Source of the DNA: Candidatus Margulisbacteria bacterium GWF2_35_9
Lineage (GTDB): Bacteria > Margulisbacteria > Riflemargulisbacteria > GWF2-35-9
Length of the DNA: 16,144 bases
Direction: 5' to 3'
Assembly: GCA_001783275.1 (NCBI GenBank)
Contig: MFRH01000066.1
Location: forward strand, 10,033 to 26,176
Each line of letters starts with the position of its first letter. The first letter of the stretch is position 1. Position numbers and translations under genes: made by a program. The notes beneath the pieces are model-generated. The model did no database searches and had not been told where the DNA came from. It worked only from the letters and a program-made list of their open reading frames with translations. Of the stretch, positions 3 to 15,550 are shown in pieces.

Positions 3-260
3 ATGTTTTATAAAAAAGTTTTTAATGTAGAGGCAAGTTATAAGCAACTCATCTTTGGGGCAATTTTTGTCACTACCTCTATGGCCATATTTAATATTGT
101 ATTTGGTTATTTTATTGTTTATATCGCAAGTAGTTTTAACAAAACATATGGGACAATATCAAGTATTATTCTTCTATTGTTATGGTTTCAGATAAATGCA
201 TTGTTTATATTGATGGGATCAAATATTGTGATGCTAAATCAGAATAAGCATCTAGCATGA
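3..260 (+). CDS. C-terminal fragment of a YihY/BrkB-family integral membrane protein. The 5' end lies outside the window.
   Basis: Open frame from the window edge. The hydrophobic TM-rich C-terminus (…ISSIILLLLWFQINALFILMGSNIV…) resembles the conserved YihY/BrkB (RNase BN-like) C-terminal block. The TGA stop overlaps the next gene's ATG (gcATGAaa at 257-260). Confidence 0.5.
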   Translation: MFYKKVFNVEASYKQLIFGAIFVTTSMAIFNIVFGYFIVYIASSFNKTYGTISSIILLLLWFQINALFILMGSNIVMLNQNKHLA

Positions 261-3200
261 AAAAAATTTTGCGATCTATGGCTCTTTGGTGTTTCATAAT
301 AATCACCTTTATGTTTTTGAGTATTATTGTTGTAATGCATACTGGTTTGCCTCAGGCCTATTTGAGTAAATTTATAACCAGCAAGATCAGTGACTCATTT
401 CCTGCAAAAATAACCATAGGCTCCATTGGTGGCAATTTTTTATGGAAATTAACGCTTAATGATATTAAGGTAGATACTGACACGTCTCCTAAACAAAGAA
501 TATTATCGGTATCATCAATAGGGATTAGATATAACCTTTTTAACCTTTTTTTTAACCGCAATTCATCAGAAAATATAATTAATATTAATATTTCAAGACC
601 GGTGGTTTTGATAAATCGCGATAAGGATGGGATTTTTAACTTTTCAAGCTTAATTCCTCCAAAGAGTCAGAATCCTTCAAGTGCTGAGTTTCCTTATAAA
701 TTGAATATACAAGTCAATAAGGGTGAGATTAATTACACGGATTATGCTACTCCCTTGCAGGTGCAAATAAAAGATACACAAGTCCAGGCAGAGTATGCTC
801 ATTCAATGTTTAAGCTTTTTGGAGTTAGGGGCGAGGTCGCTGGTAATTCATTTTTCGTTTCAGGTAACATATCCCTTAAGGAAAGTTCTCCCGGGATAGA
901 CATAGAATTGGCTGCTGCCAACTTTGATCTCGCTTCGATTGATTTGGTTTATCCGCCAGCAAAAGCATACAAATTAGAGGGGATGGCTAATCTCAATATT
1001 ACAGCCAAGTCTGTTCCAGGACAATCAATCCCAATAATTATAGGTCGCATAAGTATCCCCCAAGCCAGCGTTTATTCTTATTCGATTGCCAATATCTCTT
1101 CTGCTTTTGAATTCAATAAGCAAAAAATTAGCTTCTTAATAGATAAAGGTCTTATTGAAAAAGGGACATTTAAAACAGAAGGTACTGCGGATTTCAGTGG
1201 GCCACAACCCGCTTTTAATATTAATGGGTCATTAATGGGAGTCGACTTACAAAATCTAGTTGGGAATACTAAAATTATTACAGGAAAAGCCGATGCAGTT
1301 TTTCAGGTGAAAGGGTCTTTAAAGCAAAACTCAATCGTGTTAAATATTAAAGGAAAAAACGCTAATGCGTATGGTCGCTCGATTATAAAAGCAGACCTGA
1401 AACTCGACCTGAATAGGGGAAGCGTACTACTAAGGAAGGCCAGCATCTATACGGACAAAAAGGGGGAAATACACGCAACAGCTACGCTTTTCAAAGATAA
1501 AAATTTTGTCACCGATCTTTCGCTTAGATCATTGTCTTTTGATTCCACTAAAATATATATCAGTTCCATGGGCTCAGCCCAGGGATACATCGATAGCGAT
1601 ACTAGGTTTAGTGGCAGACTAAGTGAACAGTTTTTTTCCTCTCCTTTAGAGAATATTAAGGTGACAAGTTTATCTAATATTAAAGAAATAGACTTGTCCT
1701 ATGTAATCACAAGCAATTCTGAGGCTATAGCTCAATCTATAGATTTGCTTTCTTTTAATCTTTCCTGGGATGGCAAGTTACTAAGTGCTGATAAGATTAC
1801 TCTGCGTGAAAAAGAAACACGCCTGTTTGGAAGTGGATTTTTTGCCCTCGATAAAAGCTATCTTTTTAAGTTTAAGGGTGCCCCGATTATGCTCGAAAAT
1901 TTTGACTCTATTATCGCCGGGAAGGGAGTCGCTAGTGGTCCAATAGTCATTCAAGGAGAGGTTAGCGGCATATTGCCCTCTTGGAATTTAATGCTGGATT
2001 TTGATGTTAAATCACCGAGCTATAAAGGACTCGTTATAGATAAGATTAAAGGCTCCCTATTAAAAAAGCAAAGCATGCTCGAGATTGCTAATATGGAGAT
2101 TAGCAATAATAAAGATCTTTACATTATTGGTGGGAAAATAAATTTACCTAATTATCAAAAAGTTGACCTAAATCTTGAGATCAAAAAAGGGTCAGTTAAA
2201 AATATAATAACCTTAATTCGTGATGGGGTTAAGGTCGCCGGTATATATAAAAGTGAGCACGTTTTTGATTCGCTTGCAGGTTTAGACGAAAAAGCACTAA
2301 CTCAGATACTTAGTATTAATGCCTCTCATAACATTAACGAATCCATTCCTGTTTACAATGAAAATCAAAATACCATAACACATTTAAAATCATTTATAAC
2401 CGATACTACTACTACTGCTAATGAAAAAAAGAATGATAATAAACAGTCTTTGATTGATGATTTAACAGGGGATATTAGCGGTAAACTCAGTTTTAATAAT
2501 CTAACGAGTAATGTGTTGATGGGTGCCGATATTGGAATAAAAAACTTAAAGTTAGCCGAGTCTACTTTTGGCTCAATAGAGATTAAAGCAGAATCTACAC
2601 CTGGACCTATCGTGTCTTCAGTGGTCGTTAGAGACGGGTTAGTTGGGGGCACCTCTTTTGAGGAGGTTAGTGCCCAGTTGCTTTATGATCAAGATAAAAC
2701 TTTAATAATTGAAAGCGTCACGATGAAGTTGCATGGTTATAAAAATATCAAAATTATATCTGGTATAGTTCCTTTAGCAGAGCTATTTGGCCCTGTTGAA
2801 AACCCTAAAGCGCTCAGTCTCAATATTGAGATAGCAGGAAATCAAATCGCTATTGTTTCTTTATTTACAAATGCCATTGAATCAGCAACGAATGAAGGGG
2901 CCCTCATTTTTAACATAGGAGGCAGTGTCAAAAAGCCAATATTAAAAAAGGGATTAATTTCGATAATTAATGGTCGATTGAATTTGAAAAAGGGACTATT
3001 TCCAGTAGCCAGCTTTGTAATTCCTGAAGTCGATATTAGGGTCAAAGATAACGTCGCCTCAATTAATGCTTTTTCCCTGTCCTGGGAAGGCGATAAAAAA
3101 TTAAAAAAAACAAATCTGATTTCTGCGAGAGGAAGTGTTGGACTTAGATTGGCTCCATCCAAAGAGACTACAAGCTTTGTCATTAATACTGATATCAAAA

Positions 3201-4450
3201 TGGATGACACGGATCTCTATCTGAATATCCCTGATCTCTGCATCGGAATGTTAAAGATACGAGAGACCTCTTTTAAAGGGGATTATTTTTTCTCTCTTTC
3301 CAAATCAGATAAAGGGATTGAGGCCCCCTTAAAAAATGGACTTTTACTAAAATCAAAGCTTGAGCTTTATGAAACGGTGCTTTCTATTCCTAAAATAAGT
3401 AAGAAAAGCAAGTTATTTCCATCCATATTGATTGATATAGAGTTCACAATGGGTAAAAATGTGTTGCTTTCAGGAGGCGTTGTTCCTGAGGGAGTACTAA
3501 GCGGTTTTATAAATAACATCGATATCTATTTTGATAAGAGTCCCCACCAGTTAATGATTGGAGGAAGCCTGAATCGATATTCAATTGAAGGGAATCTGTT
3601 CTTCAGGTATGGAACAATTGTTCTTCTTAATAAAGATTTTACCCTTATGTCTCAATCAGAGCAGGAAAAATATTTTGGGCGGTCAAAAGATCTAGCCAAG
3701 CCTAATTATATAGAGTTTCGTAAAGAAGATACTGCCCCTCTTTTGCATTTAAGAGCGATGACTGAAACAGATGTTGCACAAACAGAAGTTGGGAGTAGTT
3801 TGGGGCAGCGAGAAGTTTTTATTTTTGTTATTGATGGGACTGTAACGGATGTCTCAAATATGTATATATATCAGTTCCATCGACAAGGTTCAACGTTTAC
3901 TCCTGATGAAGGTAATCCGATTGTGATTGGTCGAATGAGTGTCGTTCAACTCGAAAAACTAAGTACTTATTTGTGGCCTGAGTTACTAAGTGTCAGTTTT
4001 TATCAGAATTTGGCCAATGAAGGGTTACAAGGGGAGTCCGCTGGAATTTTTATAAGGCAATTATCAGAACGAGCGGTGAACAATATAGTTTATAGACAGC
4101 TGCGTCCAGTTGAGAGAGAAATAGCTGATAGGATAGGTGTTGATGATATTCATTTTAATTATAATTTAGGAAATATTATAAGTGATGGCAGTTCAGATAA
4201 TAATAATGGAAAACAGGACCTTGTCGGAGTGGATATCAGTTCCAGATTATTTATTGACCGACTTTATGTCACTGTGCGTACGAATTTGGATCGACAGGAG
4301 AATGACAAAACTCTCAGTGTCGGTATTTCACAATACGAACTCAAGCTATCTTTGTTAGAGTGGCTTTCGTTGATTTATCATAACAAGACAATTTTTAGTG
4401 ATAATAGAAGTGAAGGAGTATTTGCTCTTGAAGCAGAGTACAATTTTTAA
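257..4450 (+). CDS. tamB: TamB/AsmA-like translocation and assembly module protein (1397 aa, N-terminal signal-anchor, DUF490-like C-terminus).
   Basis: Single long ORF. N-terminal TM anchor (ALWCFIIITFMFLSIIVVMHTG). Very large, predicted beta-rich periplasmic body. C-terminal amphipathic block ending …GVFALEAEYNF, typical of the TamB DUF490 C-terminus. Immediately followed by an Omp85 gene. ATGA overlap with the upstream ORF. Confidence 0.78.
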   Translation: MKKILRSMALWCFIIITFMFLSIIVVMHTGLPQAYLSKFITSKISDSFPAKITIGSIGGNFLWKLTLNDIKVDTDTSPKQRILSVSSIGIRYNLFNLFFNRNSSENIININISRPVVLINRDKDGIFNFSSLIPPKSQNPSSAEFPYKLNIQVNKGEINYTDYATPLQVQIKDTQVQAEYAHSMFKLFGVRGEVAGNSFFVSGNISLKESSPGIDIELAAANFDLASIDLVYPPAKAYKLEGMANLNITAKSVPGQSIPIIIGRISIPQASVYSYSIANISSAFEFNKQKISFLIDKGLIEKGTFKTEGTADFSGPQPAFNINGSLMGVDLQNLVGNTKIITGKADAVFQVKGSLKQNSIVLNIKGKNANAYGRSIIKADLKLDLNRGSVLLRKASIYTDKKGEIHATATLFKDKNFVTDLSLRSLSFDSTKIYISSMGSAQGYIDSDTRFSGRLSEQFFSSPLENIKVTSLSNIKEIDLSYVITSNSEAIAQSIDLLSFNLSWDGKLLSADKITLREKETRLFGSGFFALDKSYLFKFKGAPIMLENFDSIIAGKGVASGPIVIQGEVSGILPSWNLMLDFDVKSPSYKGLVIDKIKGSLLKKQSMLEIANMEISNNKDLYIIGGKINLPNYQKVDLNLEIKKGSVKNIITLIRDGVKVAGIYKSEHVFDSLAGLDEKALTQILSINASHNINESIPVYNENQNTITHLKSFITDTTTTANEKKNDNKQSLIDDLTGDISGKLSFNNLTSNVLMGADIGIKNLKLAESTFGSIEIKAESTPGPIVSSVVVRDGLVGGTSFEEVSAQLLYDQDKTLIIESVTMKLHGYKNIKIISGIVPLAELFGPVENPKALSLNIEIAGNQIAIVSLFTNAIESATNEGALIFNIGGSVKKPILKKGLISIINGRLNLKKGLFPVASFVIPEVDIRVKDNVASINAFSLSWEGDKKLKKTNLISARGSVGLRLAPSKETTSFVINTDIKMDDTDLYLNIPDLCIGMLKIRETSFKGDYFFSLSKSDKGIEAPLKNGLLLKSKLELYETVLSIPKISKKSKLFPSILIDIEFTMGKNVLLSGGVVPEGVLSGFINNIDIYFDKSPHQLMIGGSLNRYSIEGNLFFRYGTIVLLNKDFTLMSQSEQEKYFGRSKDLAKPNYIEFRKEDTAPLLHLRAMTETDVAQTEVGSSLGQREVFIFVIDGTVTDVSNMYIYQFHRQGSTFTPDEGNPIVIGRMSVVQLEKLSTYLWPELLSVSFYQNLANEGLQGESAGIFIRQLSERAVNNIVYRQLRPVEREIADRIGVDDIHFNYNLGNIISDGSSDNNNGKQDLVGVDISSRLFIDRLYVTVRTNLDRQENDKTLSVGISQYELKLSLLEWLSLIYHNKTIFSDNRSEGVFALEAEYNF

Positions 4451-6125
4451 ATTATTTCTACTGAGTGCCCTATTCTTTCCGGCGATATGCGTTGCAGGCT
4501 TGTCACCACTTACCGGAATATATGATAAGGTAATCGCACAAGTTAGGCTTGAAGGTAATCATTATATTACCTCAGCTTCTATCTTTGCCTCAGTTAACTT
4601 TGAAGCTTCTGCTAACACTCTCGTGAAGGTAGAACAAGTTAGAAATGATATAGAAAATATCTATTCATTAGGTTTTTTTAAGAGTGTAAACGTGGCGCTA
4701 AAATCTGAGAAGCAAGGGCAAGTATTGATCTATCAGTTAGAAGAAAATCCCTTGATTAAAAAAATTGTTATTAATGGGATATCAGCAGAAGACGATAATT
4801 TTTTTTTAGAGGCGATGAATACTCGTCCTTTAACTGTATTGTCCTATAAAGTTATTGATGAAGATATTCAGAGAATTAATAAAAAGCTTGTTGATTATGG
4901 CTATTCTCTTAATAGAGTTAGTAACGTTGAATTTTTAACTACTAGTAACATCGTGTTGCTGAGCATCAAAGAAACTAAAATTAATAACGTATTGATAAAT
5001 GGTAACCAACGATTTGCTGATAATCTCATTTCTCGGGAAATGACTGCTAGGAAAGGCAGGGTTTTTAACTTAAATGAAGTGAGAAAAGACAGAGATATCA
5101 TACTTGGTTTAGGATATTTTTCATCAGTTTCTGCTCCTCAACTAGTGCCTGTAAAAGACACGGATGATATTGATATCGTCTTTTCGGTTGTCGAAAGAAA
5201 AGTGAATTCTATTTCCCTTGCTCTTGAAGAAGGGCGCAAGTCTATTAACCTGACTTTTCGTAATCAGCTTGTTAATTATTTGAAGTGGGGAGAGTCTTTT
5301 TCTGCAAGAGCACAGTACGGAGAAGAGCAACTGTATAGCCTGCATTTTTATCTTCCGTGGACATTTAATCAGAGAGTTTCTCTTGGATTGAATAAATGGC
5401 TTCAAATTAGCAGAGAAAGTGATAAAAATGGCATAGATTACGATGTATTACGCAATGGGGCAGATATAATTTGGGGCTTGCCGCTGGCTGATGAAATTAA
5501 AATGTATGTAACTTATCGAAGTGAAAATGTGCGTGAAAATGTAGCTGTTCCGTCAATAATCTATACAAAAAATGATATAGAACTTGCTATCTCTTATGAG
5601 AATCGAGACAGCTTAGTCAAACCGACTAATGGCAGCTATGGCTATGCTCAGGTCAGTAAAGGCGGGAACTACGGTTTGTTTGACCTTGGCGGAATCAATT
5701 ACGTTCGTATGAGCGCGAGCTATATGCAATTTTATAAAGTAAGAGATAAGCAGGTATTCGCCTTTCGTAATAGCTATGGATCATTCAGTCCTGACCAAAA
5801 TAACATTAAATTGCTGGAGTTAGATCTATTTACTATCGGAGGAGCATCTACAATAAGAGGTTATACTGACTCTACATCACGCAGAGGGTTGCATATGTTG
5901 ACGGGTAATTATGAATATAGAATATATTTAATGGAGGCTCTGTCACTGGTGTTTTTCTATGATATGGGTATCGTTTATGAACAGGAAATATCTTTATCAG
6001 ACTTCATTGCGGGGCGTGGTTTTGGGTTTAGGTTTTTCACACCTTTTGGACCTATCAGGCTAGATTTAGCGTGGTCTAATAGTAGTGATTTTGTCTTGCA
6101 TTTTGGTTTATCAGAAATGTTCTAA
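4398..6125 (+). CDS. tamA: Omp85-family outer-membrane protein (TamA/BamA-like; POTRA repeats plus C-terminal 16-strand barrel).
   Basis: 575 aa. Signal-peptide-like N-terminus (KLFLLSALFFPAICVAG). Repeated POTRA-like segments. C-terminal 'bacterial surface antigen' barrel with terminal motif …RFFTPFGPIRLDLAWS…HFGLSEMF ending in Phe. Size and adjacency to tamB favour TamA over the essential BamA. The ATG at 4398 overlaps the tamB 3' end by 53 nt, so the true start may be slightly downstream. Confidence 0.78.
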   Translation: MIIEVKEYLLLKQSTIFKLFLLSALFFPAICVAGLSPLTGIYDKVIAQVRLEGNHYITSASIFASVNFEASANTLVKVEQVRNDIENIYSLGFFKSVNVALKSEKQGQVLIYQLEENPLIKKIVINGISAEDDNFFLEAMNTRPLTVLSYKVIDEDIQRINKKLVDYGYSLNRVSNVEFLTTSNIVLLSIKETKINNVLINGNQRFADNLISREMTARKGRVFNLNEVRKDRDIILGLGYFSSVSAPQLVPVKDTDDIDIVFSVVERKVNSISLALEEGRKSINLTFRNQLVNYLKWGESFSARAQYGEEQLYSLHFYLPWTFNQRVSLGLNKWLQISRESDKNGIDYDVLRNGADIIWGLPLADEIKMYVTYRSENVRENVAVPSIIYTKNDIELAISYENRDSLVKPTNGSYGYAQVSKGGNYGLFDLGGINYVRMSASYMQFYKVRDKQVFAFRNSYGSFSPDQNNIKLLELDLFTIGGASTIRGYTDSTSRRGLHMLTGNYEYRIYLMEALSLVFFYDMGIVYEQEISLSDFIAGRGFGFRFFTPFGPIRLDLAWSNSSDFVLHFGLSEMF

Positions 6126-6369
6126 CTTTACTAAAAAGTATAGATTCAGGATTATCCATTCGAATTCTATAACCATCGAGTATATCAATAGCCTTGGCGA
6201 GAGCGAGAACACTCGGTTTCCCGCTAAGGAGTATACTGATTAATAACAGGAATACGGAACTAATGATACTAAGATATATTCCCTGCTTAATTGATGAGAG
6301 TGATTCAATTTAAAAAGCAAGGTCAACTCATTTCAAATATAGAATAAAATATACTAAAGGAGGATCGTG

Positions 6370-6846
6370 ATGGAAATAATCAAGTCTGATCATAATTTTG
6401 CAGCCGTGTGGATTGACCATAAGAAAGCAGTTATCTCTTTTCTTGATGATAAGGGGCATCGTGAGCAAGTTTTAACTATTGAGTCAAACGTAAGCGCTCA
6501 TATAAATTTCAAAACTGGACGGGGATATAGTAGCAACCAACATCTGCAAATGGTTAAACCAGCAATTAGTCAGGAGCGCAAACATCAAAGCCAGTTGAAG
6601 CGTTACTTCCAAGAAATAATACAAACGCTTAAAGGCATTGGTAGCTTCATCGTTATTGGTCCTGGGGAGGCCAAAATAGAATTTCAAAAAGAAATTCACA
6701 AAAACAAAGAACTTTTTCCACTTCTAAAAGAAGTTCTGCCCCAAGATAACATAACTGAAACCCAACTTGTTGCCTATGCCAAAAAATTCCATGTGCCAGT
6801 TGGATCACCTTTTACTGTGTCTAAGCCTAAACTGATTAGAAGGTAG
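6370..6846 (+). CDS. Hypothetical 158-aa protein, possibly Host_attach / bacterial eRF1-like (baeRF) fold.
   Basis: Strong SD AAAGGAGGA (6356-6364) lies 6 nt before ATG 6370 (GTG 6367 is the alternative). Sequence …AAVWIDHKKAVISFLDD…GIGSFIVIGPGEAKIEFQKEI… is reminiscent of the small Host_attach family. Ends TAG. Its 3' end overlaps the HDAC-like remnant on the opposite strand. Confidence 0.55.
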   Translation: MEIIKSDHNFAAVWIDHKKAVISFLDDKGHREQVLTIESNVSAHINFKTGRGYSSNQHLQMVKPAISQERKHQSQLKRYFQEIIQTLKGIGSFIVIGPGEAKIEFQKEIHKNKELFPLLKEVLPQDNITETQLVAYAKKFHVPVGSPFTVSKPKLIRR

Positions 6847-7396
6847 AGGGGTTTAAATTTATTGATTTTGTGAAGAGCTTTGATAAGGGTTTCTTTGTAT
6901 TCTTCATAAGTAATGTGCTCTGGCATAGGATAATTAACATTAAAGCCTTGGCCTATCCCCTCGCCTATTTCCTCTGTAAAACCAGAAAAATAAGGATAAG
7001 CAACGCGGGGATTTCCGTGGATGGACAAACAGAGAAGGTTTGGGTTTTAACTTTTATACAGAGATTGGTTTTTTCCAGTTCAGCCATGATGGAAGCAACT
7101 CTTACAGGAGATTCGACATAACCCCGCTCCTTAACGTGATGAATATAATGCTTCTCATTAAATATCAAGGCAATTTTTTGCCTGTCTTTTATCAAAAAGT
7201 CTCGGGATGGGATAGGTTTTTTAATATATATTTTTTCTCTGCATTTTACTGGGTCATCCTTAAAGGAATTTAGAACCATGCGCATATATTTGGGTGAACA
7301 CAAATCGGAGTATTTGCGTCTAAGGATAGCTTTAACAATTTTTACGGTTGATTCCAAGTGAAGGTTATTTTTATCAGCTTCCAAACTATCAAACAT
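6774..7396 (-). pseudogene. Histone-deacetylase/acetylpolyamine-amidohydrolase (HDAC-fold) gene remnant. Two overlapping reading frames, with the catalytic core deleted.
   Basis: The upstream ORF (7396..6965) contains the N-terminal HDAC block …IALIFNEKHYIHHVKERGYVESPVRVASIMAELEKT (the HPE-x-P-x-R region). The downstream ORF (7028..6774), in another frame, carries YPYFSGFTEEIGEGIGQGFNVNYPMPEHITYEEY (FPGTG…G-x-G…N-x-PL motif) and …ISLGLDTVKGDPTGTWNF (G-x-D…DPLG block). About 150 aa between these blocks are missing, including the HH and D-x-H zinc/catalytic residues. The 3' end is overrun by the convergent gene at 6370-6846. Confidence 0.6.
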
Positions 7397-7402
7397 CAGC
7401 TA

Positions 7403-7912
7403 AGGAGGATTATCATCCCCTTCATTTAAGGGTGTTTCATATTTGGTATTCACGATAGAGGTCACTCCAAAACGTTCATAAAACTTGAGGCGACTGATAT
7501 TTTCCTTGAGGATATTGGGGGTCCTTACAAAGAGTAGAATCATCTGGCAGACATTCAAAAAACAAGCCGATACTTTTTAGCTTTTTCGCTTCTGAACGTG
7601 CTTTTTCATATAGAATGCTACCTATCTGCCGGAAAAACCTTTTTTGGTGGCGATGTAATCCAGAAAGCTGAAATTCAAGTCTGGAGCATGAAACAAAAGC
7701 GCAAAGGCATCCACGCTTCCTTTATAATTATCAGCTACCAGCAAAATAGACCTGAATTTGTATTTTAAGGGATTATGAAGTTGTTCAGTTAATTGTTGTA
7801 TTTTTTCTTCTTTAACACTAGGGAATTGAGCCCTGATAATATCCTGAACCTGAATAATTACTTTTTGATTAGCAGGATACAGAGCATCATGAATACGTCT
7901 TATTCTTAACAT
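7403..7912 (-). pseudogene. GNAT-family acetyltransferase paralogue interrupted by two in-frame stop codons (TAG at 7624..7622, TAA at 7579..7577).
   Basis: ORF 7912..7625 (96 aa) ends …LDYIATKKGFSGR*. The same frame continues VAFYMKKHVQKRKS*KVSACFLNVCQMILLFVRTPNILKENISRLKFYERFGVTSI…, ending at TAG 7402..7400. The tail carries the GNAT C-terminal 'FYE+FGF'-like motif. The total is about 170 codons, a normal GNAT size. It starts directly after the upstream GNAT's TAA (TAAATG). TAA and TAG are bona fide stops elsewhere in the window. Confidence 0.55.
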
Positions 7913-8413
7913 TTACACGACTTTTACAAAGATGACTTTGTCGTCATTGGGCCCGTAGAAATCTTTTAACTGGGCTTCCACTATATAGTCGCTTTTTTGA
8001 TAGAATTTTCGGGTGGGTATGTATAGGTCTTTAGATGATGTTTCCACATAGATACGACCTCCCCCAATTTCCTTGATAATCATCTCGGTTCGTTTCATAA
8101 GCTCTTTGCCTATTCCGCTCTTTTGATATGTATTCTCTACAGCAATCCAGTATAGGTCGTAACTTGAAGCAGTACCCATAATCGGCCCATAACACACATA
8201 TCCAATAACTTCGCCTTCATTTTCAGCAAAAAGGAAATAGTAGCCACTTTCTTTACCTTTCTGGAGACGTTCATCAATAAGTTCAACCGCAATTTCCTGT
8301 TCTTCCTCATTAAAGAAATCCGTAGATTTAATTATCCTACGAATAGCTTCTGAATCAGTACCCAACGTTTCCTGCCGAAAGTTTAAAGAGATATTCGTTA
8401 GTTTATTTTTCAT
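7913..8413 (-). CDS. GNAT-family N-acetyltransferase (166 aa).
   Basis: Motif A …YQKSGIGKELMKRTEMIIKEIGGGRIYVETS… and C-terminal …KFYQKSDYIVEAQ… . ATG 8413-8411 overlaps the TGA of the upstream ATP-grasp gene (ATGA). Confidence 0.85.
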   Translation of the reverse strand: MKNKLTNISLNFRQETLGTDSEAIRRIIKSTDFFNEEEQEIAVELIDERLQKGKESGYYFLFAENEGEVIGYVCYGPIMGTASSYDLYWIAVENTYQKSGIGKELMKRTEMIIKEIGGGRIYVETSSKDLYIPTRKFYQKSDYIVEAQLKDFYGPNDDKVIFVKVV

Positions 8414-9402
8414 GTAGGTATCCTTATAGCTTTTATTATAATTTCAATCATTTCTTTGTAAGAAAGACCGCTTTCTTTTGCTGCTGCGACAAATCCACTA
8501 TCTTCAGCTATTCCTGGATTTGCATTAACTTCAAGTATCCATGGACGGTTGTGTTTATCCACCCGGAAATCTACTCTAGCATATGCGTTAAGACCAAAGA
8601 GTTTCCAGCAATTTAATGAAATCTGTTTAAGTTCATCCAACAACTTTTTATCACTGTCTTTGAAGGTAAATGTCCGACTGGTATTTTTATATTCAAAGGT
8701 GGTTTCCTCCCACTTAGCGGCATAGCTTACTATTTTTGCTTTGTCTTTTGGAAAATTGAAAAACTGCATTTCGGCAGGTGGTAAAACAGTTGGATTAGAA
8801 TCGGGACCAATAATGGAAATATTAAATTCCCGACCATCTATATATTCTTCAGCAAAAAAATGGTCATGCAGTCTTTCGTTCCTGTCCAGAATGAAATCGT
8901 TTAAGGCTTGTCCGCTATTAAAAGTTTTTACTGAAGAATCATCAATATTTATAGAGGCATCCTCTACTATAGATTTTACAATTACACGCTTGTTTTCTAA
9001 GGGAACAGCAGATGAAGAAGTCTTAGGATCATACCATTCTGCTGTTGGCAGGATTGCCTGTCTTAACACCGTTTTGCTTAATACCTTGTCTGTTGTTAAA
9101 TAAATGGCCTCCGCAGAACATCCACTGTATGGAATTGCGTAAAAATCTAGTAGGGCTGGGACAAGATGTAAAAAACGTCCCTCCATTTCAACCAGATTAA
9201 ATACAAACTCAGCGGTTTTTAGCTCAGGAAGAATGGACGTCAAATTTTCAGGAGATACTTGTTTTATAAGTGGATCATAGCCCAAGGCTATAATGGCCTC
9301 GTTAACATTCTTTATCTGAACAAGCGTATCCAACTGATCCTCTGCATTAGGATCAGTTATCTGCTGATGCAAAAGCACCACATTTTTTAAACGTGTAGTC
9401 AT
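8410..9402 (-). CDS. D-alanine-D-alanine-ligase-like ATP-grasp amide ligase (about 330 aa).
   Basis: C-terminal …YARVDFRVDKHNRPWILEVNANPGIAEDSGF… matches the Ddl ATP-grasp Mg/ATP site. The N-terminal Ddl-like Rossmann domain starts at MTTRLKNVVLLHQQ. I place the start at ATG 9402-9400, which forms an ATGA overlap with the upstream stop. The longest-ORF start at 9486 would instead give an 88-nt overlap. Confidence 0.82.
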   Translation of the reverse strand: MTTRLKNVVLLHQQITDPNAEDQLDTLVQIKNVNEAIIALGYDPLIKQVSPENLTSILPELKTAEFVFNLVEMEGRFLHLVPALLDFYAIPYSGCSAEAIYLTTDKVLSKTVLRQAILPTAEWYDPKTSSSAVPLENKRVIVKSIVEDASINIDDSSVKTFNSGQALNDFILDRNERLHDHFFAEEYIDGREFNISIIGPDSNPTVLPPAEMQFFNFPKDKAKIVSYAAKWEETTFEYKNTSRTFTFKDSDKKLLDELKQISLNCWKLFGLNAYARVDFRVDKHNRPWILEVNANPGIAEDSGFVAAAKESGLSYKEMIEIIIKAIRIPT

Positions 9403-11729
9403 TGCATGACCGGAGTAAGTCTTTTTACAGCTGAATCCATAATCATTTGGATCAGTTTTGTATAAGGGATTCCCATATGTCTGCAAAGAATTGGCAGGTC
9501 CGAATCATTCGGGTTTAGTCCAGCAAGTGTATTAACCTCAATAAAGTTAGGAACTCCATTTTTATCCAGACGCATATCAATTCTCCCACCATCTCTACAT
9601 CCCAAAGCTTTCCATGCTTTGATAGCGATATCTGCACTTTTTTGGGCTTCAATATCTGTTGCTATTGTATAGTGAATCATTTCCTCATAATTTTGCTTAT
9701 TAGCGTAAGAATATATCTCTTGTTCCGCATTTTTTGAAATGAATACTTCTAAGACTCCAAGAGCTTTCGCTTCAGATCCTGTACCAACTATTCCAATAGT
9801 GAATTCTCTTCCTGGCAGAAATTCTTCAACAAGAACTGCTTGTTGAAATTTAACCAACAAGTCTTTGACCGTTTGATGCAAAGTTTCTTTATCCTTTATT
9901 TTTGAAGTGGCAGTAACTCCTTTACTGCTACCTTCCGCCACTGGTTTAGCGAATAACGGGAATTCCAGATTAATGTTTTCTATATCCTCTACATTTTCCA
10001 CTACATGAAAAGCAGCGGTAGGAATTCCTTTATCTTTTAACACATGCTTTACAAGGCCTTTATGCTGGGAAAGTGAATGAATGGTTGAAGATGAAAAGGT
10101 AGAAGGAATGCCATACGCATCTAATAGGCTGGGCACTTGAGACTCCCGGGATATTCCATGTAGACCTTCGGCAATATTAAACACCAAATCCCATTTTTTC
10201 CCATTGTGCAATAGGTGAACCAAATTATGAATATTACCGATTCGATCTGTTTCGTAGCCTAATTCCTTCAAACTATTTTCAATGGCTTCAATGGTTTCTA
10301 TTTTATCAAATTCAGCGATATCCTCATTGCTGTATCCCATATTTTTATAATCTTCTTTCAAGTCATAACAGATGCCAACTTTGAGTTTTTTGCTTTTCTG
10401 CTCAGAAACAGGGTCATAGTAAGAATATATCTTGTCCTGATAGTTTTTCAACATAACCTGATTGCCATTCCGTCCAATATAATACTCTGGTAATATCGGG
10501 ATTTTTCCTCCTCCACCAGGAGCGTCTATTACATAATGAGGAATAGCATAACCAGAGGTGTGGCCTCTTAATCCCTTGATGATTTCCAGTCCTTTTTCTA
10601 CACTTGTTCGGAAGTGAGAAGATCCTTCAATAAGATCGCACTGATACAAATAGTAGGGGCGGACTCGAATCTTGAGTAGTTCATGGAACAGCTTCTTCAT
10701 AATGGGGACACTGTCATTTATACCTTTTAGTAAAACCGTCTGACTACCCAAGGGAATGCCAGCATCGGCAAGCCGATTGCAGGCCTCTCTTGTTTCTTCT
10801 GTTATTTCATCTGGATGAGTGAAATGCAGACTTAAATACAGTGGCTTGTACTTCTGCAGAATCTTTAGCAATTTTTTGGTTATTCTTTGTGGCAAGACAG
10901 CTGGTATTTTGGAGCCAATCCGAATAATTTCAAGATGTTTTATTTCGCTTAATCCTGAAAGCAACCAGTCTAGTTGCTTATCTGAAAGCGTCAAAGGATC
11001 TCCACCGGAAATAATAACATCACGTATTTCGGTATGGGCCTGAATATAATCAATAGAATCCTGCCAATCAGCAAAACCGGTTTTTTGTTTTTTAGTTACA
11101 TGACCTACTACCCGAGAGCGGGTGCAGTATCGGCAATTGACAGAACAAAAACTGGTTGCCAGAAAAAGGGCCCGGTCTGGGTATCGATGTATAATACCAT
11201 TTACGGGTCGAGTAGTGTCTTCTCCTAAGGGATCAAAGGATTCTTCCTGTGTAATTTTCAATTCATCTATAACTGGAATAACCGAACGGCGTATAGATTG
11301 TTTTCCATTTCTTTCATCCAGAAGGCTTGCATAATAGGGAGTTATTGAGATCGGAAGCTTCCCAAGTTTGCCTCTTTTTTCAAGTATCTCCCGTTCAGTA
11401 TTGCTTAGTGTAACAAATGTTTCCAGTTGTTTTAATGTTCGAATCCTGTTACGCAACTGCCACTTCCAGTTACCCCAGTTAATTTTTGTCGATCCAGGAA
11501 AGTGTTTATGATAAAACTTTGCGGATTTATTAGAAATTGGGAAACCATGGTTTTTGTTTGGGATAACAGAAGGAAGGGACATAAGATTTTTTTCATAAAT
11601 CGGCAATCTCAGACCGTGTTTTGGTAAAATAGCAATTATAGTGCCAAGCGGAGGCTCTCCTTCATCGGAATTTTCCTCAGAAATGGAACCTATATCAACC
11701 AGATTTAGGTTATTATTTTTTGTTATCAT
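9399..11729 (-). CDS. kamA: Fusion protein: lysine 2,3-aminomutase (radical-SAM KamA/AblA, residues about 70-440) fused to a C-terminal D-Ala-D-Ala-ligase-like ATP-grasp domain (about 450-776).
   Basis: N-terminal part is block-by-block colinear with Clostridium subterminale LAM: WGNWKWQLRNRI, ITPYYASLLD, HRYPDRALFLATSFCSVNCRYCTRSR (CxxxCxxC), IISGGDPLTLSD, RIGSKIPAVLPQRIT, RVRPYYLYQCDL, GLRGHTSGYAIPHYVIDAPGGGGK. C-terminal part is colinear with Ddl: WDLVFNIAEGLHG, PLFAKPVAEGSSKGV, VLVEEFLPGREFTIGIVG, GCRDGGRIDMRLDKNGVPNFIEVNTLAGL. Ends TGA at 9401-9399. Confidence 0.9.
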   Translation of the reverse strand: MITKNNNLNLVDIGSISEENSDEGEPPLGTIIAILPKHGLRLPIYEKNLMSLPSVIPNKNHGFPISNKSAKFYHKHFPGSTKINWGNWKWQLRNRIRTLKQLETFVTLSNTEREILEKRGKLGKLPISITPYYASLLDERNGKQSIRRSVIPVIDELKITQEESFDPLGEDTTRPVNGIIHRYPDRALFLATSFCSVNCRYCTRSRVVGHVTKKQKTGFADWQDSIDYIQAHTEIRDVIISGGDPLTLSDKQLDWLLSGLSEIKHLEIIRIGSKIPAVLPQRITKKLLKILQKYKPLYLSLHFTHPDEITEETREACNRLADAGIPLGSQTVLLKGINDSVPIMKKLFHELLKIRVRPYYLYQCDLIEGSSHFRTSVEKGLEIIKGLRGHTSGYAIPHYVIDAPGGGGKIPILPEYYIGRNGNQVMLKNYQDKIYSYYDPVSEQKSKKLKVGICYDLKEDYKNMGYSNEDIAEFDKIETIEAIENSLKELGYETDRIGNIHNLVHLLHNGKKWDLVFNIAEGLHGISRESQVPSLLDAYGIPSTFSSSTIHSLSQHKGLVKHVLKDKGIPTAAFHVVENVEDIENINLEFPLFAKPVAEGSSKGVTATSKIKDKETLHQTVKDLLVKFQQAVLVEEFLPGREFTIGIVGTGSEAKALGVLEVFISKNAEQEIYSYANKQNYEEMIHYTIATDIEAQKSADIAIKAWKALGCRDGGRIDMRLDKNGVPNFIEVNTLAGLNPNDSDLPILCRHMGIPYTKLIQMIMDSAVKRLTPVMQ

Positions 11730-12796: not shown

Positions 12797-12991
12797 ATAA
12801 AAACCCTCCTTAATATTTTATTAACTATTTCCAAGCATAACCCATGAACTTCATAGAAGCAAACTAATAAGCTTTTTCAATAAATCAGGAATATTTCTTC
12901 CCTAAATCGTAATTAAGGGATATCATTCTCTTTACTTATAACCGTCTTTGGAAAAATATAAGTATAAAATATAAAATAAATGAGGTATAAC
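12797..12991. promoter_or_regulatory. Divergent intergenic region. Presumed promoters for the SPFH gene (minus) and the zinc-ribbon gene (plus).
   Basis: 195-nt AT-rich spacer between divergently oriented starts. Several -10-like hexamers (TATAAA/TAAAAT around 12962-12976). No confident -35 assignment. Confidence 0.3.
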
Positions 12992-13360
12992 ATGGGATTT
13001 TTCGATAAGGGAAAAAAAGATAATAATGAATTTCGATCAGAAGGAACAAAACGTAGATCCTCAGGTGGCGGTAGAGACTCATATGAAGAAAAGGAGTTAA
13101 CAACTGTCACATGCGATACCTGTGGCAAAAGTTGCACGGTACCCTTTAGACCAACAGCTGGCAAACCAGTTTATTGTAATGATTGTTTTAAGAAAAATGA
13201 TTCGGGTTCACGAAGTGACAGATCCGCCTATCCAAAACGTCGTACAGGTTCAGATTCTCGTGGTAGAAGTTCAGACAGTGGTTCTTCAAGTCGTGAATTA
13301 GCTCAGATTAATGCCAAGTTAGATCGTATTCTAGAGATGCTAGACCAAGACGCAGAATAA
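12992..13360 (+). CDS. Small C4 zinc-ribbon protein with a basic RS/SR-rich tail and a C-terminal coiled segment.
   Basis: CDTCGKSCTVPFRPTAGKPVYCNDCF (CxxC-x17-CxxC). This matches a widespread small zinc-ribbon family (C-x2-C-G-K…VPF-P…+PVYC-x2-C). GAGG lies 6 nt upstream of ATG 12992 (longest-ORF ATG is at 12980). Followed by a strong intrinsic terminator. Confidence 0.7.
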   Translation: MGFFDKGKKDNNEFRSEGTKRRSSGGGRDSYEEKELTTVTCDTCGKSCTVPFRPTAGKPVYCNDCFKKNDSGSRSDRSAYPKRRTGSDSRGRSSDSGSSSRELAQINAKLDRILEMLDQDAE

Positions 13361-14260: not shown

Positions 14261-15550
14261 ATGAGGCTCTTAAACTTTCAGGTTAATTACTATAAATGCA
14301 TCAGTGATTCCGGTATTATCAACATTAACGATATTGCGTGTTTCATTGGCAACAACAATAGTGGAAAAACAGCTTTATTTGAAGCTCTTTACAAATTGAA
14401 CCCCGCTTTTTCGAAAAACAAGTTTTTTGAGTCTGATGATTTTCCAAAAGACAAGATTGAATACCAAAACTCTAAAACAAGAGTAATTACTTGTACCTTT
14501 AAACTAACTGATGCAGAATTAATATTTATTAATAAAAAATTTGGAGACCATTGCATAAATTCCGATATTATTACTGTATCAAGAGACTATGCAAATAATC
14601 TCCATTGGGATTTTGAAATTAACGAAGAAAGTTATGTTAAACATCTTATTGATAAAAGAAATTTAACAAAATTATTTGAGAAACATTTAAGTAAGATTAA
14701 TTCAGTGGAATCCTGCTATAGTGTTGCGAAGGAATTGCCTCCTCTATCAACCAGCCTCGTTTCGTTTATTACCCAACTTGAATTATTGAAAATTCGTTCA
14801 ATGAAGGAAGAAATTATTGAAGGATACTTTCAACACTGGATACCCAAATTCCTATATATTTCTGAAGTTCATAAGCTACCGGGTTATTTTTCATTAAAAC
14901 AAATAACCAAAGCCCTCTCTTCATCAGATGATGTTAAAGAAGCTGCAAAAACAGCTTTAGCTTTCTTAAAACTACTGGAAGTAGATATTAACAGCTTATT
15001 AACCGAACCAGATAATAATAAACTACTTGAAACAATGAATAACTTATCAAGTAATCTGTCATCACACCTTTCTTCCATTTTACAAATTTTTGAACATCTA
15101 CAAATTGATATTGATATTCAATCCCTAGTTGCCCAAAATGTTCGTATTGATTCCACAATTTATATCAACATAACCAATAAAGAAACTAAGATCACTTTAC
15201 CTATTGGAAAACATGGAAAATCACTAGTTTATTTTTTATCGTTCCTTTGCTCCTTATCAATAATAAAAGATAAAACCGAACCATATATAATACTTATTGA
15301 TACACCCTCAGATCATTTAAGCATCGATGCTCAATCCGAATTTTGTAAATATATTCATGATGTATTAACACAAAAACACCAAATTCTATATACAACACAT
15401 TCTCCATTTATGATTAATACGAAAGCAAAAGACAATCTTTATTCTGTCTTTATCAAACCAAACTTCGGGACTGTCGTATCTCAAGACGTAAACTCAGATT
15501 CACTGACAAAGAAGATTTCAGATATCGCAGACAAATTCTATTCGAAATAA
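14261..15550 (+). CDS. OLD/AAA_15-type ABC ATPase (429 aa) with a degenerate Walker B. Putative orphan defence/abortive-infection ATPase.
   Basis: N-terminus MRLLNFQVNYYKCI…ININDIACFIGNNNSGKTALFEAL matches the OLD-family start (MkIkslkIkNF…) and has the P-loop GxNxSGKT. It has a long helical insert. The C-terminal …PYIILIDTPSDHLSIDAQ…QILYTTHSPFMI gives Walker B hhhhD plus the TTHSP H-loop. The canonical DEPE…LHP is DTPS…LSI here. No TOPRIM or nuclease domain is present, and no partner gene lies downstream. Confidence 0.72.
   Translation: MRLLNFQVNYYKCISDSGIININDIACFIGNNNSGKTALFEALYKLNPAFSKNKFFESDDFPKDKIEYQNSKTRVITCTFKLTDAELIFINKKFGDHCINSDIITVSRDYANNLHWDFEINEESYVKHLIDKRNLTKLFEKHLSKINSVESCYSVAKELPPLSTSLVSFITQLELLKIRSMKEEIIEGYFQHWIPKFLYISEVHKLPGYFSLKQITKALSSSDDVKEAAKTALAFLKLLEVDINSLLTEPDNNKLLETMNNLSSNLSSHLSSILQIFEHLQIDIDIQSLVAQNVRIDSTIYINITNKETKITLPIGKHGKSLVYFLSFLCSLSIIKDKTEPYIILIDTPSDHLSIDAQSEFCKYIHDVLTQKHQILYTTHSPFMINTKAKDNLYSVFIKPNFGTVVSQDVNSDSLTKKISDIADKFYSK

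What the first reader, a model, noticed from the sequence alone, without database searches (positions are those of the whole stretch)
7403..11729. Undescribed beta-lysine ligase/acetylation operon: LAM-ATP-grasp fusion + second Ddl-like ATP-grasp + GNAT (+ decaying GNAT and HDAC-like genes)
A bona fide lysine 2,3-aminomutase makes beta-lysine. It is covalently fused to a Ddl-like ATP-grasp amide ligase and translationally coupled (ATGA overlaps) to a second Ddl-like ligase and a GNAT acetyltransferase. Established analogies: AblA/AblB (LAM + GNAT make N-epsilon-acetyl-beta-lysine); B. subtilis kamA-yodP; and Ngg (a GNAT-Ddl-like fusion making N-acetylglutaminyl-glutamine, a dipeptide osmolyte). 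This gene set therefore looks like machinery to build an N-acetylated beta-lysine-containing di/tri-peptide or short beta-lysine oligomer (a compatible solute or small bioactive peptide), made without an NRPS. I do not recognise this exact architecture (LAM fused to Ddl-like ligase) as a characterised pathway.
Basis: partly seen in the sequence, partly recalled or inferred. Interest (0 to 1): 0.88.

Follow-up and report, generated by a model that had tools for sequence, protein, structure and literature searches.

The report
Orphan beta-lysine ligase/acetylation operon
This is an intact operon that most likely turns lysine into beta-lysine and builds it into a small acetylated amide compound without a giant peptide synthetase; the same uncharacterised gene set is conserved in hundreds of anaerobic bacterial species, so it probably makes a common metabolite nobody has yet identified.

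Summary
On the minus strand, 9399-11729 encodes one 776-aa protein: a lysine 2,3-aminomutase (LAM) fused to a D-Ala-D-Ala-ligase-like ATP-grasp domain (AG1). ATGA overlaps couple it to a second ATP-grasp (AG2, 8410-9402) and a GNAT (7913-8413). A single decayed GNAT-deacetylase gene follows (6777-7912).

The main correction concerns rarity. The fusion is a variant of a widespread unfused operon: LAM, AG1, AG2, GNAT, sometimes GNAT-deacetylase. AG2 relatives occur at 588 or more loci in species-representative genomes. Of 59 loci with enough flank, 52 carry LAM plus AG1. About 15 phyla are represented, mostly anaerobes. LAM and ATP-grasp have fused repeatedly, in both orders.

The LAM keeps every lysine-specific catalytic residue. 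Both ligases keep the Ddl catalytic residues but not its substrate residues. The deacetylase is of the acetylpolyamine-amidohydrolase type. I found no curated family, defence model, precursor peptide or paper that explains the operon. One member has an orphan crystal structure (2R7H).

Best reading: NRPS-independent synthesis of an acetylated beta-lysine amide of unknown structure and role. It is a new variant of a known kind, of moderate to high interest.

The parts
9399..11729 (-). Fusion gene, 776 aa: lysine 2,3-aminomutase domain joined to the first Ddl-like ATP-grasp ligase (AG1)
   Evidence: ORF. Pfam finds Radical_SAM + LAM_C + Dala_Dala_lig_C on one chain. It is 67-74% identical over its full length to P0001-P0003.
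11541..11729 (-). N-terminal extension (aa 1-63), predicted disordered, carrying a conserved acidic SDxGEPPLG motif
   Evidence: AF2 pLDDT is 25-30 for residues 1-61. The motif is conserved in 5 fused relatives, so the stretch is coding.
10401..11540 (-). LAM domain (aa about 64-443): radical SAM/PLP lysine 2,3-aminomutase, short form without the Zn site
   Evidence: 2A5H match at E=1.7e-122. C125/C129/C132, R134, D293, D330 and K337 are conserved. C268 is Ser and the C-terminal Cys tail is absent. The KamA subfamily model is passed at 358 bits against a 199 cutoff; the AblA equivalog scores 490 against 525.
9414..10385 (-). AG1 domain (aa about 449-772): Ddl-like ATP-grasp amide ligase, joined to the LAM by a linker of about 5-10 residues
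   Evidence: Dala_Dala_lig_C E=1.1e-32. Ddl catalytic residues K97, K144, E180, E187, K215, R255, D257, E270 and N272 are conserved; Y216 is absent; AEFD and SD motifs are invariant. Linker residues 442-446 have low pLDDT.
8410..9402 (-). AG2: second Ddl-like ATP-grasp ligase, 330 aa, with ATGA overlaps at both ends
   Evidence: Junctions read. 100% identical to P0121 from Candidatus Margulisbacteria GWF2_35_9. Catalytic residues are conserved, Trp sits at Ddl position 216, and there is an insertion of about 14 aa after K215. The AF2 model has pLDDT 92.5 and its nearest solved folds are Ddl, TM 0.73-0.80.
7913..8413 (-). GNATc: GNAT N-acetyltransferase, 166 aa
   Evidence: Acetyltransf_1 E=2.9e-13. 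About 45% identical to PDB 2R7H at E=6e-40. No AblB or Ngg model appears among its 14 NCBIfam hits.
6777..7912 (-). Pseudogene of a single GNAT-like/HDAC (acetylpolyamine-amidohydrolase type) gene: frameshifts, internal stops, catalytic core deleted, 3' end truncated
   Evidence: tblastn of the intact L004 761-aa protein against the window, checked against three-frame translations. The 84-aa piece hits Hist_deacetyl at 7.6e-18. Intact homologues match APAH structures 9gkz, 6phr and 3q9b at 2e-68 to 4e-61.

Best explanation
The operon is an NRPS-independent pathway that makes a small acetylated amide compound built on beta-lysine.

1. **LAM step** (strongly inferred from conserved residues). 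The LAM domain converts L-lysine to beta-lysine by radical-SAM/PLP chemistry.
2. **First ligation** (inferred from repeated gene fusion). AG1, fused to the LAM, takes beta-lysine directly. Like Ddl, it phosphorylates a carboxylate with ATP and joins it to an amine, forming one amide bond.
3. **Second ligation** (inferred). AG2 forms a second amide bond, on beta-lysine or on the AG1 product.
4. **Acetylation** (inferred from AG2-GNAT fusions elsewhere). The GNAT acetylates a remaining free amine.
5. **Deacetylation** (inferred from the enzyme type). In fuller versions of the operon, a GNAT-like/acetylpolyamine-amidohydrolase protein adds and removes an acetyl group on a long aminoalkyl chain. 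The natural candidate is the epsilon-amine of the beta-lysine unit. It could act in turnover or as a protect/deprotect step. That gene is dead here, so this organism runs the biosynthetic core only.

Beta-lysine has three handles: a carboxyl, a beta-amine and an epsilon-amine. The core supplies three modifying enzymes. A triply decorated beta-lysine is therefore the simplest product model.

The co-substrates and the physiological role are not known. Candidate roles are a compatible solute, a polyamine-like cation, a nitrogen store or an exported compound.
For: - **LAM identity.** All lysine-specific and catalytic residues are conserved. It scores 490 bits on the AblA model, 442 on glutamate aminomutase, 400 on arginine aminomutase and 250 on EpmB.
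- **Ligases look active.** AG1 and AG2 both keep the Ddl ATP/Mg/catalytic residues.
- **Fusion evidence.** LAM-AG1 fusions fall in at least 10 separate clades of an NJ tree among unfused LAMs. Reverse AG-LAM fusions are also common. AG2-GNAT and GNAT-HDAC-GNAT fusions occur as well.
- **Conserved operon.** Of 59 GTDB loci with enough upstream flank, 54 have LAM and 52 have LAM plus AG1. Of 58 with downstream flank, 54 have the GNAT and 20 the HDAC. The hosts span about 15 phyla.
- **Self-contained.** No other gene is conserved with the core, which suggests that common metabolites are the inputs.
- **No precursor peptide.** No conserved small ORF was found.
- **Deacetylase type.** The HDAC domain is closest to the small-molecule acetylpolyamine amidohydrolases.
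- **Small-molecule hints.** A DMT_6 or MFS transporter sits inside the operon in some lineages. Lysine-biosynthesis genes lie beside an AG-LAM fusion in L007.
Against: - No product has been observed, and no enzyme of the set has been assayed.
- Substrate-site residues differ from Ddl, so the acyl donor and acceptor cannot be read from sequence.
- AF2 gives no confident packing of the two domains (pTM 0.54), so physical channelling is not supported structurally.
- Some loci carry AG2 plus GNAT with no LAM within 10 kb (L027, L060, L074). AG2 may therefore not strictly need beta-lysine.
- Two acetyltransferases plus a deacetylase in one system are not fully explained.
Confidence: 0.6

Rival explanations
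1. It is a protein or peptide modification system. The ATP-grasp ligases would attach beta-lysine to a protein side chain or terminus, as an EF-P beta-lysylation analogue. Alternatively they would process a ribosomal peptide, like the two ATP-grasps plus GNAT of microviridin biosynthesis.
For: - Two ATP-grasps plus a GNAT is also the microviridin enzyme set (my own knowledge).
- The GNAT's best NCBIfam hit is RimI, a protein N-terminal acetyltransferase, although at 43 bits against an 86-bit cutoff.
- In the close relative L003 the fusion gene lies downstream of EarP and EF-P.
Against: - No conserved small ORF lies near the core in about 85 loci.
- The ligases are Ddl-type by sequence and fold, not RimK/graspetide-type.
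- The L003 EF-P has Arg at the loop tip and an adjacent EarP. It is therefore the rhamnosylated type, with no lysine to beta-lysylate.
- LAM chemistry needs a free alpha-amino acid (established mechanism).
- The deacetylase is of the small-molecule APAH type.
Confidence: 0.1
2. It is plain N-epsilon-acetyl-beta-lysine osmolyte synthesis (AblA/AblB-like). The two Ddl-like genes would do something unrelated, such as cell-wall D-Ala-D-Ala synthesis.
For: - The LAM scores best on the AblA model.
- A GNAT is present in the operon.
- An APAH-type deacetylase would suit an N-epsilon-acetyl-aminoalkyl group.
Against: - The LAM is covalently fused to AG1, and this fusion arose repeatedly.
- The GNAT has no AblB-family hit.
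- Both ligases fall far below the Ddl cutoffs, at 157 and 111 bits against 243, and lack Tyr216.
- The four genes travel together in 52 of 59 loci.
- Hosts include freshwater, groundwater, peat and reactor organisms, not only saline ones.
Confidence: 0.07
3. It is lysine catabolism or fermentation. LAM would be the first step of the lysine-to-butyrate/acetate pathway.
For: KamA-family LAMs start lysine fermentation in Clostridia and Porphyromonas (established knowledge).
Against: - No beta-lysine 5,6-aminomutase, 3,5-diaminohexanoate dehydrogenase, cleavage enzyme or CoA-transferase genes lie in the window or in the related loci.
- The partners are ATP-consuming ligases, which points to biosynthesis.
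Confidence: 0.03
4. It is a decaying, non-functional locus. The downstream pseudogene would signal that the whole operon is being lost in this genome.
For: The GNAT-HDAC gene is clearly dead.
Against: - The three upstream genes are intact and full length, and keep every catalytic residue.
- They are 63-74% identical to intact relatives.
- About two thirds of intact operons elsewhere lack the HDAC gene altogether, so it is dispensable.
Confidence: 0.05

Closest known systems
AblA/AblB pathway for N-epsilon-acetyl-beta-lysine (methanogens, some bacteria)
   Same: A KamA-family LAM makes beta-lysine from lysine. A GNAT in the same operon acetylates an amine. The LAM's best HMM match is AblA.
   Different: - The LAM scores below the AblA cutoff, 490 against 525.
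- The GNAT is not AblB-family.
- Two ATP-grasp ligases are integral to the operon, one of them fused to the LAM.
- An APAH-type deacetylase is an optional member.
- This LAM clade lacks the Zn site.
PylB/PylC of pyrrolysine biosynthesis (my own knowledge; PylC model TIGR03909)
   Same: The logic is the same. A radical-SAM enzyme rearranges lysine, and a Ddl-like ATP-grasp ligase then joins the new amino acid to an amine through an acyl phosphate.
   Different: - PylB is not a KamA-family, PLP-dependent aminomutase.
- AG2 homologues score only 26 bits on the PylC model against a 248 cutoff.
- There is no PylD here.
- This system has two ligases and acetylation.
D-alanine-D-alanine ligase (Ddl)
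   Same: Same fold: AG2 model TM 0.73-0.80 to Ddl structures. All ATP/Mg/catalytic residues are the same.
   Different: - Only 18-22% identical.
- Below every Ddl HMM cutoff.
- Tyr216 is absent in AG1 and replaced by Trp in AG2.
- AG2 has an insertion of about 14 aa after K215.
- The genomic context is LAM and GNAT, not mur/ftsQ.
Ngg (N-acetylglutaminylglutamine amide synthesis; GNAT fused to an ATP-grasp-like ligase; my own knowledge)
   Same: It makes an N-acetylated small peptide without an NRPS, by combining a GNAT with an ATP-dependent ligase. AG2-GNAT fusions exist in this family too.
   Different: - No Ngg-family HMM hit appears among the GNAT's hits.
- The domain order is reversed.
- There is no AsnO-type amidotransferase.
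- The building block here is beta-lysine.
Blasticidin S genes BlsG/BlsI (arginine 2,3-aminomutase plus ATP-grasp ligase; recalled from memory, not tested)
   Same: A KamA-family 2,3-aminomutase supplies a beta-amino acid that an ATP-grasp enzyme couples to an amine.
   Different: - That pair sits inside a large actinomycete antibiotic cluster.
- Here the residues are lysine-type, and the arginine aminomutase model scores 400 against a 600 cutoff.
- This operon is small, self-contained and phylogenetically widespread.
Acetylpolyamine amidohydrolase (APAH; PDB 9gkz, 6phr, 3q9b)
   Same: The HDAC domain of intact operon members matches APAH at E=2e-68 to 4e-61.
   Different: - In this family it is fused to an N-terminal GNAT-like domain, and sometimes also to the operon's C-terminal GNAT.
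- In the window it is a pseudogene.
PDB 2R7H, 'putative D-alanine N-acetyltransferase of GNAT family' (structural genomics)
   Same: It is a true family member of the window's GNAT, about 45% identical at E=6e-40. Its gene sits in the same LAM/AG1/AG2/GNAT operon.
   Different: Its name is a guess taken from the neighbouring Ddl-like genes. I found no functional study.

Membership tests
KamA-family lysine 2,3-aminomutase | Radical-SAM CxxxCxxC cluster motif (Cys125/129/132 of 2A5H) | tested here: met
   Conserved in the window protein and in 19 relatives.
KamA-family lysine 2,3-aminomutase | PLP lysine (Lys337) and lysine-specific substrate ligands (Arg134, Asp293, Asp330) | tested here: met
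   All conserved. Glutamate aminomutases replace the two Asp residues (established knowledge).
KamA-family lysine 2,3-aminomutase | HMM score above the curated cutoff | tested here: met
   The TIGR00238 KamA subfamily model scores 358 bits against a 199 cutoff. The AblA equivalog TIGR03820 scores 490 against 525, so that narrower model is not met.
KamA-family lysine 2,3-aminomutase | Inter-subunit Zn site (Cys268 plus the C-terminal Cys375/377/380 of the Clostridium enzyme) | tested here: not met
   Position 268 is Ser, Asn, Asp, Gln or Thr. The chain ends, or continues into AG1, at about residue 371 in all 20 operon LAMs checked. This marks a distinct short clade; it does not argue against LAM chemistry.
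KamA-family lysine 2,3-aminomutase | Conversion of L-lysine to beta-lysine | not testable with these tools
   Needs an anaerobic enzyme assay.
EpmB (EF-P beta-lysylation aminomutase) | EpmB HMM above cutoff, with an EpmA partner | tested here: not met
   TIGR03821 scores 250 bits against a 369 cutoff. No EpmA-like gene is in the window. The relative L003 has an Arg-type EF-P with EarP.
D-Ala-D-Ala ligase (Ddl) | ATP-grasp fold and catalytic residues K97, K144, E180, E187, K215, R255, D257, E270, N272 | tested here: met
   Conserved in AG1 and AG2. Fold confirmed for AG2.
D-Ala-D-Ala ligase (Ddl) | Ddl HMM above cutoff, and the D-Ala site triad Glu15/Ser150/Tyr216 | tested here: not met
   Best Ddl model scores are 157 bits (AG1) and 111 bits (AG2) against a 243 cutoff. 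Tyr216 is absent in AG1 and is Trp in AG2. Position 150 is Thr/Ser in AG1 and Ala/Gly in AG2.
AblB beta-lysine N-epsilon-acetyltransferase | Match to the AblB-type GNAT family | tested here: not met
   All 14 NCBIfam hits of the GNAT are listed and none is AblB. The best is RimI at 43 bits against an 86 cutoff.
PylC (3-methylornithine-lysine ligase) | PylC HMM above cutoff | tested here: not met
   TIGR03909 scores 26 bits against a 248 cutoff for an AG2 homologue. It is not listed at all for the window proteins.
Graspetide/microviridin-type RiPP system | A precursor peptide gene next to the ATP-grasp ligases | tested here: not met
   No small ORF of 25-110 aa is conserved beyond 5-6 related loci.
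HDAC/acetylpolyamine amidohydrolase | Intact catalytic core (His-His, Zn ligands, catalytic Tyr) | tested here: not met
   In the window the core (residues about 311-428) is deleted, the frame is broken and the C-terminus is missing. Intact homologues elsewhere do meet this feature.
Known anti-phage defence systems (PADLOC) | Any PADLOC model hit for the operon proteins | tested here: not met
   0 families for all four proteins.

The most novel reading that the evidence does not exclude
The operon makes a previously undescribed beta-lysine-based metabolite. The product would be a beta-lysine decorated on its carboxyl and its two amines by two ATP-grasp ligations and an acetylation. This would be a common metabolite of anaerobic bacteria across about 15 phyla, for example a new class of compatible solute or polyamine-like cation. 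An APAH-type enzyme would be dedicated to its turnover.
Probability: 0.45. Interest if true: 0.75.

Novelty: new variant of a known kind. Interest (0 to 1): 0.62.

Why it matters
- **A likely unknown metabolite.** If the inference holds, hundreds of anaerobic species share an unrecognised small-molecule pathway. They include sulfate reducers, syntrophs, Bacteroidales, Planctomycetota, Spirochaetota, Dependentiae and Margulisbacteria. Its product is absent from current metabolite lists.
- **New enzymology.** It would add a second biosynthetic fate for beta-lysine besides acetyl-beta-lysine and NRPS antibiotics. It would also give two new substrate specificities for Ddl-like ligases, which are currently mis-annotated as D-Ala-D-Ala ligases.
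- **An orphan structure explained.** The crystal structure 2R7H would gain a function.
- **Directly testable.** The same operon occurs in cultured Desulfovibrio and Oleidesulfovibrio species.

Tried and rejected
1. **Riboswitch or other RNA leader.** An Rfam scan of the window and 9 loci found none near the operon.
2. **RiPP precursor.** No small ORF is conserved.
3. **Accessory genes.** All-against-all clustering of about 4000 ORFs from 87 loci found only lineage-specific neighbours. These are a sigma-54 activator, an 82-104 aa protein, a DMT_6 transporter, lysA and Pit/PhoU.
4. **Sigma-54 promoter in the window.** A perfect -24/-12 match at 11631-11646 lies inside the conserved coding N-terminus (GEPPLG), so I reject it as chance. 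Matches upstream of the LAM in Desulfovibrio-type loci, next to a sigma-54 activator gene, look real.
5. **Defence system.** No PADLOC hit.
6. **EF-P modification.** Rejected for this lineage.
7. **Literature.** Nine searches found no paper on the operon. Only 3 held papers contain both 'aminomutase' and 'ATP-grasp', and none is relevant. The Iyer et al. 2009 amidoligase paper is not held.
8. **Domain packing in the fusion.** The AF2 model gave two good domains but pTM 0.54, so no orientation could be inferred.
10. **Promoters and terminators.** The sigma-70 promoter and terminator scan was no better than shuffled sequence.

Full report
**What is in the window**

The minus strand between 6777 and 11729 carries one operon.

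- **Fusion gene.** ORF 9399-11729 encodes 776 aa. Pfam finds Radical_SAM (192-340), LAM_C (384-467) and Dala_Dala_lig_C (564-764) on the same chain.
- **Couplings.** The fusion's TGA overlaps the ATG of the next gene as ATGA at 9399-9402. That gene (8410-9402, 330 aa) is a second Ddl-like ATP-grasp, which I call AG2. Its TGA in turn overlaps the ATG of a 166-aa GNAT (7913-8413), which I call GNATc.
- **Source organism.** AG2 is 100% identical to a 'hypothetical protein' of Candidatus Margulisbacteria bacterium GWF2_35_9, which identifies the source.

**The decayed downstream gene**

Directly after the GNAT stop, an ATG at 7912 opens what used to be one gene. I aligned an intact 761-aa homologue from locus L004 to the window. 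That protein has an N-terminal GNAT-like domain, an HDAC domain and a C-terminal GNAT.

- Window 7912-6968 covers the GNAT-like domain and the first part of the HDAC domain, with stops or frameshifts near 7625, 7553 and 7400.
- HDAC residues about 311-428 are missing, including the His-His motif.
- A frame-shifted piece at 7094-6777 covers residues 428-530, and the rest is gone.

**The aminomutase**

- The domain aligns to Clostridium subterminale LAM (2A5H) at E=1.7e-122.
- The cluster cysteines 125/129/132, the carboxylate ligand Arg134, the epsilon-ammonium ligands Asp293 and Asp330, and the PLP lysine 337 are all conserved.
- NCBIfam ranks AblA-type LAM first (490 bits), ahead of glutamate (442) and arginine (400) aminomutases and EpmB (250). 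It passes the KamA subfamily cutoff but not the deliberately strict AblA cutoff of 525.
- One real difference exists. The Zn ligand Cys268 is replaced and the C-terminal Cys tail is absent. This holds for all 20 operon-associated LAMs I checked, fused or not. It is a distinct short LAM clade.

**The two ligases**

- In an alignment with E. coli DdlB, AG1 and AG2 both keep K97, K144, E180, E187, K215, R255, D257, E270 and N272. (The DdlB sequence came from memory; its numbering matched all the named residues.) Both should therefore catalyse ATP-dependent acyl-phosphate formation and amide ligation.
- They are not Ddl. They score 157 and 111 bits against a 243 cutoff.
- Tyr216 is missing in AG1 and is Trp in AG2.
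- AG1 has invariant AEFD and Ser-Asp motifs.
- AG2 has an insertion of about 14 residues after K215.
- An AF2 model of AG2 (pLDDT 92.5) is closest to Ddl structures, at TM 0.73-0.80 and 18-22% identity.
- The AF2 model of the whole fusion shows two well-folded domains, a disordered 61-residue N-terminus and a short low-confidence linker (442-446). Its pTM is 0.54, so no inter-domain geometry can be claimed.

**How common the gene set is**

*Fusions.* A protein search found about 30 fused LAM-AG1 clusters at 46-74% identity, named at most 'KamA family radical SAM protein'.

*Unfused operons.* Scanning one genome per GTDB species with an AG2 profile gave at least 588 loci, and I fetched the best 80. 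I mapped six domain queries onto them, with these results:

| Loci considered | Number | Carry |
|---|---|---|
| At least 3.5 kb upstream of AG2 | 59 | LAM in 54; LAM plus AG1 in 52 |
| At least 3.2 kb downstream of AG2 | 58 | GNATc in 54; the HDAC domain in 20 |

- The order LAM, AG1, AG2, then the GNAT genes is nearly constant, but the position of GNATn-HDAC varies. It usually lies between AG2 and GNATc. In D. mangrovi and the window it follows GNATc, and in some Bacteroidales it lies between LAM and AG1.
- Hosts include Syntrophales, Syntrophobacteraceae, Desulfobacterales, Desulfovibrionaceae, Bacteroidales, Cytophagia, Planctomycetota, Spirochaetota, Ignavibacteria, Krumholzibacteriota, Acidobacteria, Aminicenantes, Dependentiae, Kiritimatiellia, Chromatiaceae and Riflemargulisbacteria.
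- Among these 80, only the Riflemargulisbacteria locus (L008) is fused.
- Desulfovibrio mangrovi (L090) has the window's exact gene order, unfused and with an intact GNAT-HDAC gene.

**Fusions as evidence of function**

- In an NJ tree of LAM domains, the fused proteins fall into at least 10 separate groups among unfused ones. An NJ tree is only indicative.
- An exhaustive search of 1.8 billion representative proteins shows many further fusions in both orders, LAM-AG and AG-LAM.
- One reverse fusion carries an extra Peptidase_S51 domain (L006). Another lies beside dapA/dapB/dapF/lysA (L007).
- AG2-GNATc and GNATn-HDAC-GNATc fusions also occur.

Repeated independent fusion is the strongest available evidence that AG1 uses the LAM product, and that AG2 and the GNAT act on the same molecule.

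**What is not there**

- No other gene is conserved with the core. Neighbours are lineage-specific: a sigma-54 activator and a small protein upstream in Desulfobacterota, a DMT_6 transporter inside the operon in Smithella-like genomes, an MFS gene in L005, and lysA in six loci.
- There is no conserved small ORF, so a RiPP precursor is unlikely.
- There is no riboswitch and no PADLOC hit.
- No NCBIfam equivalog exists for any component.
- Nine literature searches found nothing on this gene set. The library lacks most subscription journals, so a description elsewhere cannot be excluded.

**Deacetylase and GNATs**

- Intact HDAC domains of the family match acetylpolyamine amidohydrolases at 2e-68 to 4e-61. 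This is well above the matches to protein deacetylases. It points to an N-acetyl group on a long aminoalkyl chain of a small molecule.
- The N-terminal GNAT-like domain has a weak Acetyltransf_1 hit.
- GNATc is about 45% identical to PDB 2R7H. That protein's gene lies in a sigma-54 activator/LAM/AG1/AG2/GNAT operon of an Oleidesulfovibrio-like organism. Its deposited name, 'putative D-alanine N-acetyltransferase', appears to be a guess from context.

**Mechanism**

The shown and inferred steps are set out under the best explanation. In brief:

- Lysine-type LAM chemistry is strongly supported by residues.
- Two active amide ligases and an acetyltransferase acting on the LAM product are inferred from fusions and conserved synteny.
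- The three-handles/three-enzymes product model, and the epsilon-N-acetyl target of the deacetylase, are my inference.
- Loci with LAM plus AG2 (plus GNAT) but no AG1 (L019, L072), and loci with AG-LAM alone, suggest that each ligase can work on beta-lysine without the other.
- Loci with AG2 plus GNAT and no LAM within 10 kb are a caveat.

**Verdict**

The real finding is a widespread orphan operon rather than a unique fusion. It combines known enzyme kinds in an arrangement with close logical parallels (AblA/AblB, PylB/PylC, Ngg), so I rate it a new variant of a known kind, interest 0.62.

Noticed in passing
window 14261-15550 (+): A 429-aa AAA_15 ATPase matches the PARIS defence protein AriA over the whole profile (PADLOC E=6e-22). 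It lies in the lowest-GC part of the window (about 30%). No AriB/Toprim partner is visible before the window ends.
   Followed up: partly
window 6367-6846 (+): A 159-aa ORF with no Pfam or PADLOC family converges on and overlaps the truncated 3' end of the HDAC pseudogene. Its arrival may have caused the truncation.
   Followed up: no
window 257-4450 (+) and 4398-6125 (+): A 1397-aa DUF748 protein overlaps the start of an Omp85/POTRA protein. The pair resembles a TamB/TamA-like outer-membrane assembly module.
   Followed up: no
window 11631-11646 (-): A perfect sigma-54 -24/-12 consensus (TGGCACTATAATTGCT) lies inside the fusion gene's coding N-terminus, where it encodes the conserved PLGTIIA stretch. 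I judge it a chance match. Real-looking sigma-54 sites, together with an activator gene, precede the LAM in Desulfovibrio-type loci L088-L090 and in L064.
   Followed up: yes
window 11541-11729 (-); also L003, L008, P0002, P0003: The fused proteins share a disordered, acidic N-terminal extension of about 60 residues with a conserved SDxGEPPLG motif of unknown role.
   Followed up: partly
window 10401-11540 (-) and LAM genes of L001-L072: The whole operon-associated LAM clade lacks the Zn site of the Clostridium enzyme. Cys268 is replaced and the C-terminal Cys tail is absent. This implies a different oligomer interface.
   Followed up: yes
L004 15355-18481: Several MttB-family genes and a pyrrolysine insertion element (PYLIS_3, 64.9 bits) lie a few kb downstream of a LAM-AG1 operon. 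This is probably coincidence, but the operon's logic resembles PylB/PylC.
   Followed up: no
L003 7372-9042: In the closest relative with flanking sequence, EarP and an Arg-type EF-P lie just upstream of the fusion gene, on the same strand.
   Followed up: partly
L006 6682-10835: A triple fusion of Peptidase_S51, ATP-grasp and LAM (944 aa) is translationally coupled to a 440-aa protein with no Pfam family. The S51 family (cyanophycinase, dipeptidase E) hints at an aspartyl-containing partner substrate.
   Followed up: no
window 12980-13360 (+): A 126-aa protein has a treble-clef zinc finger (zf_Tbcl_2, 4.5e-16) and an Arg/Ser/Gly/Asp-rich tail. Its function is unknown.
   Followed up: no
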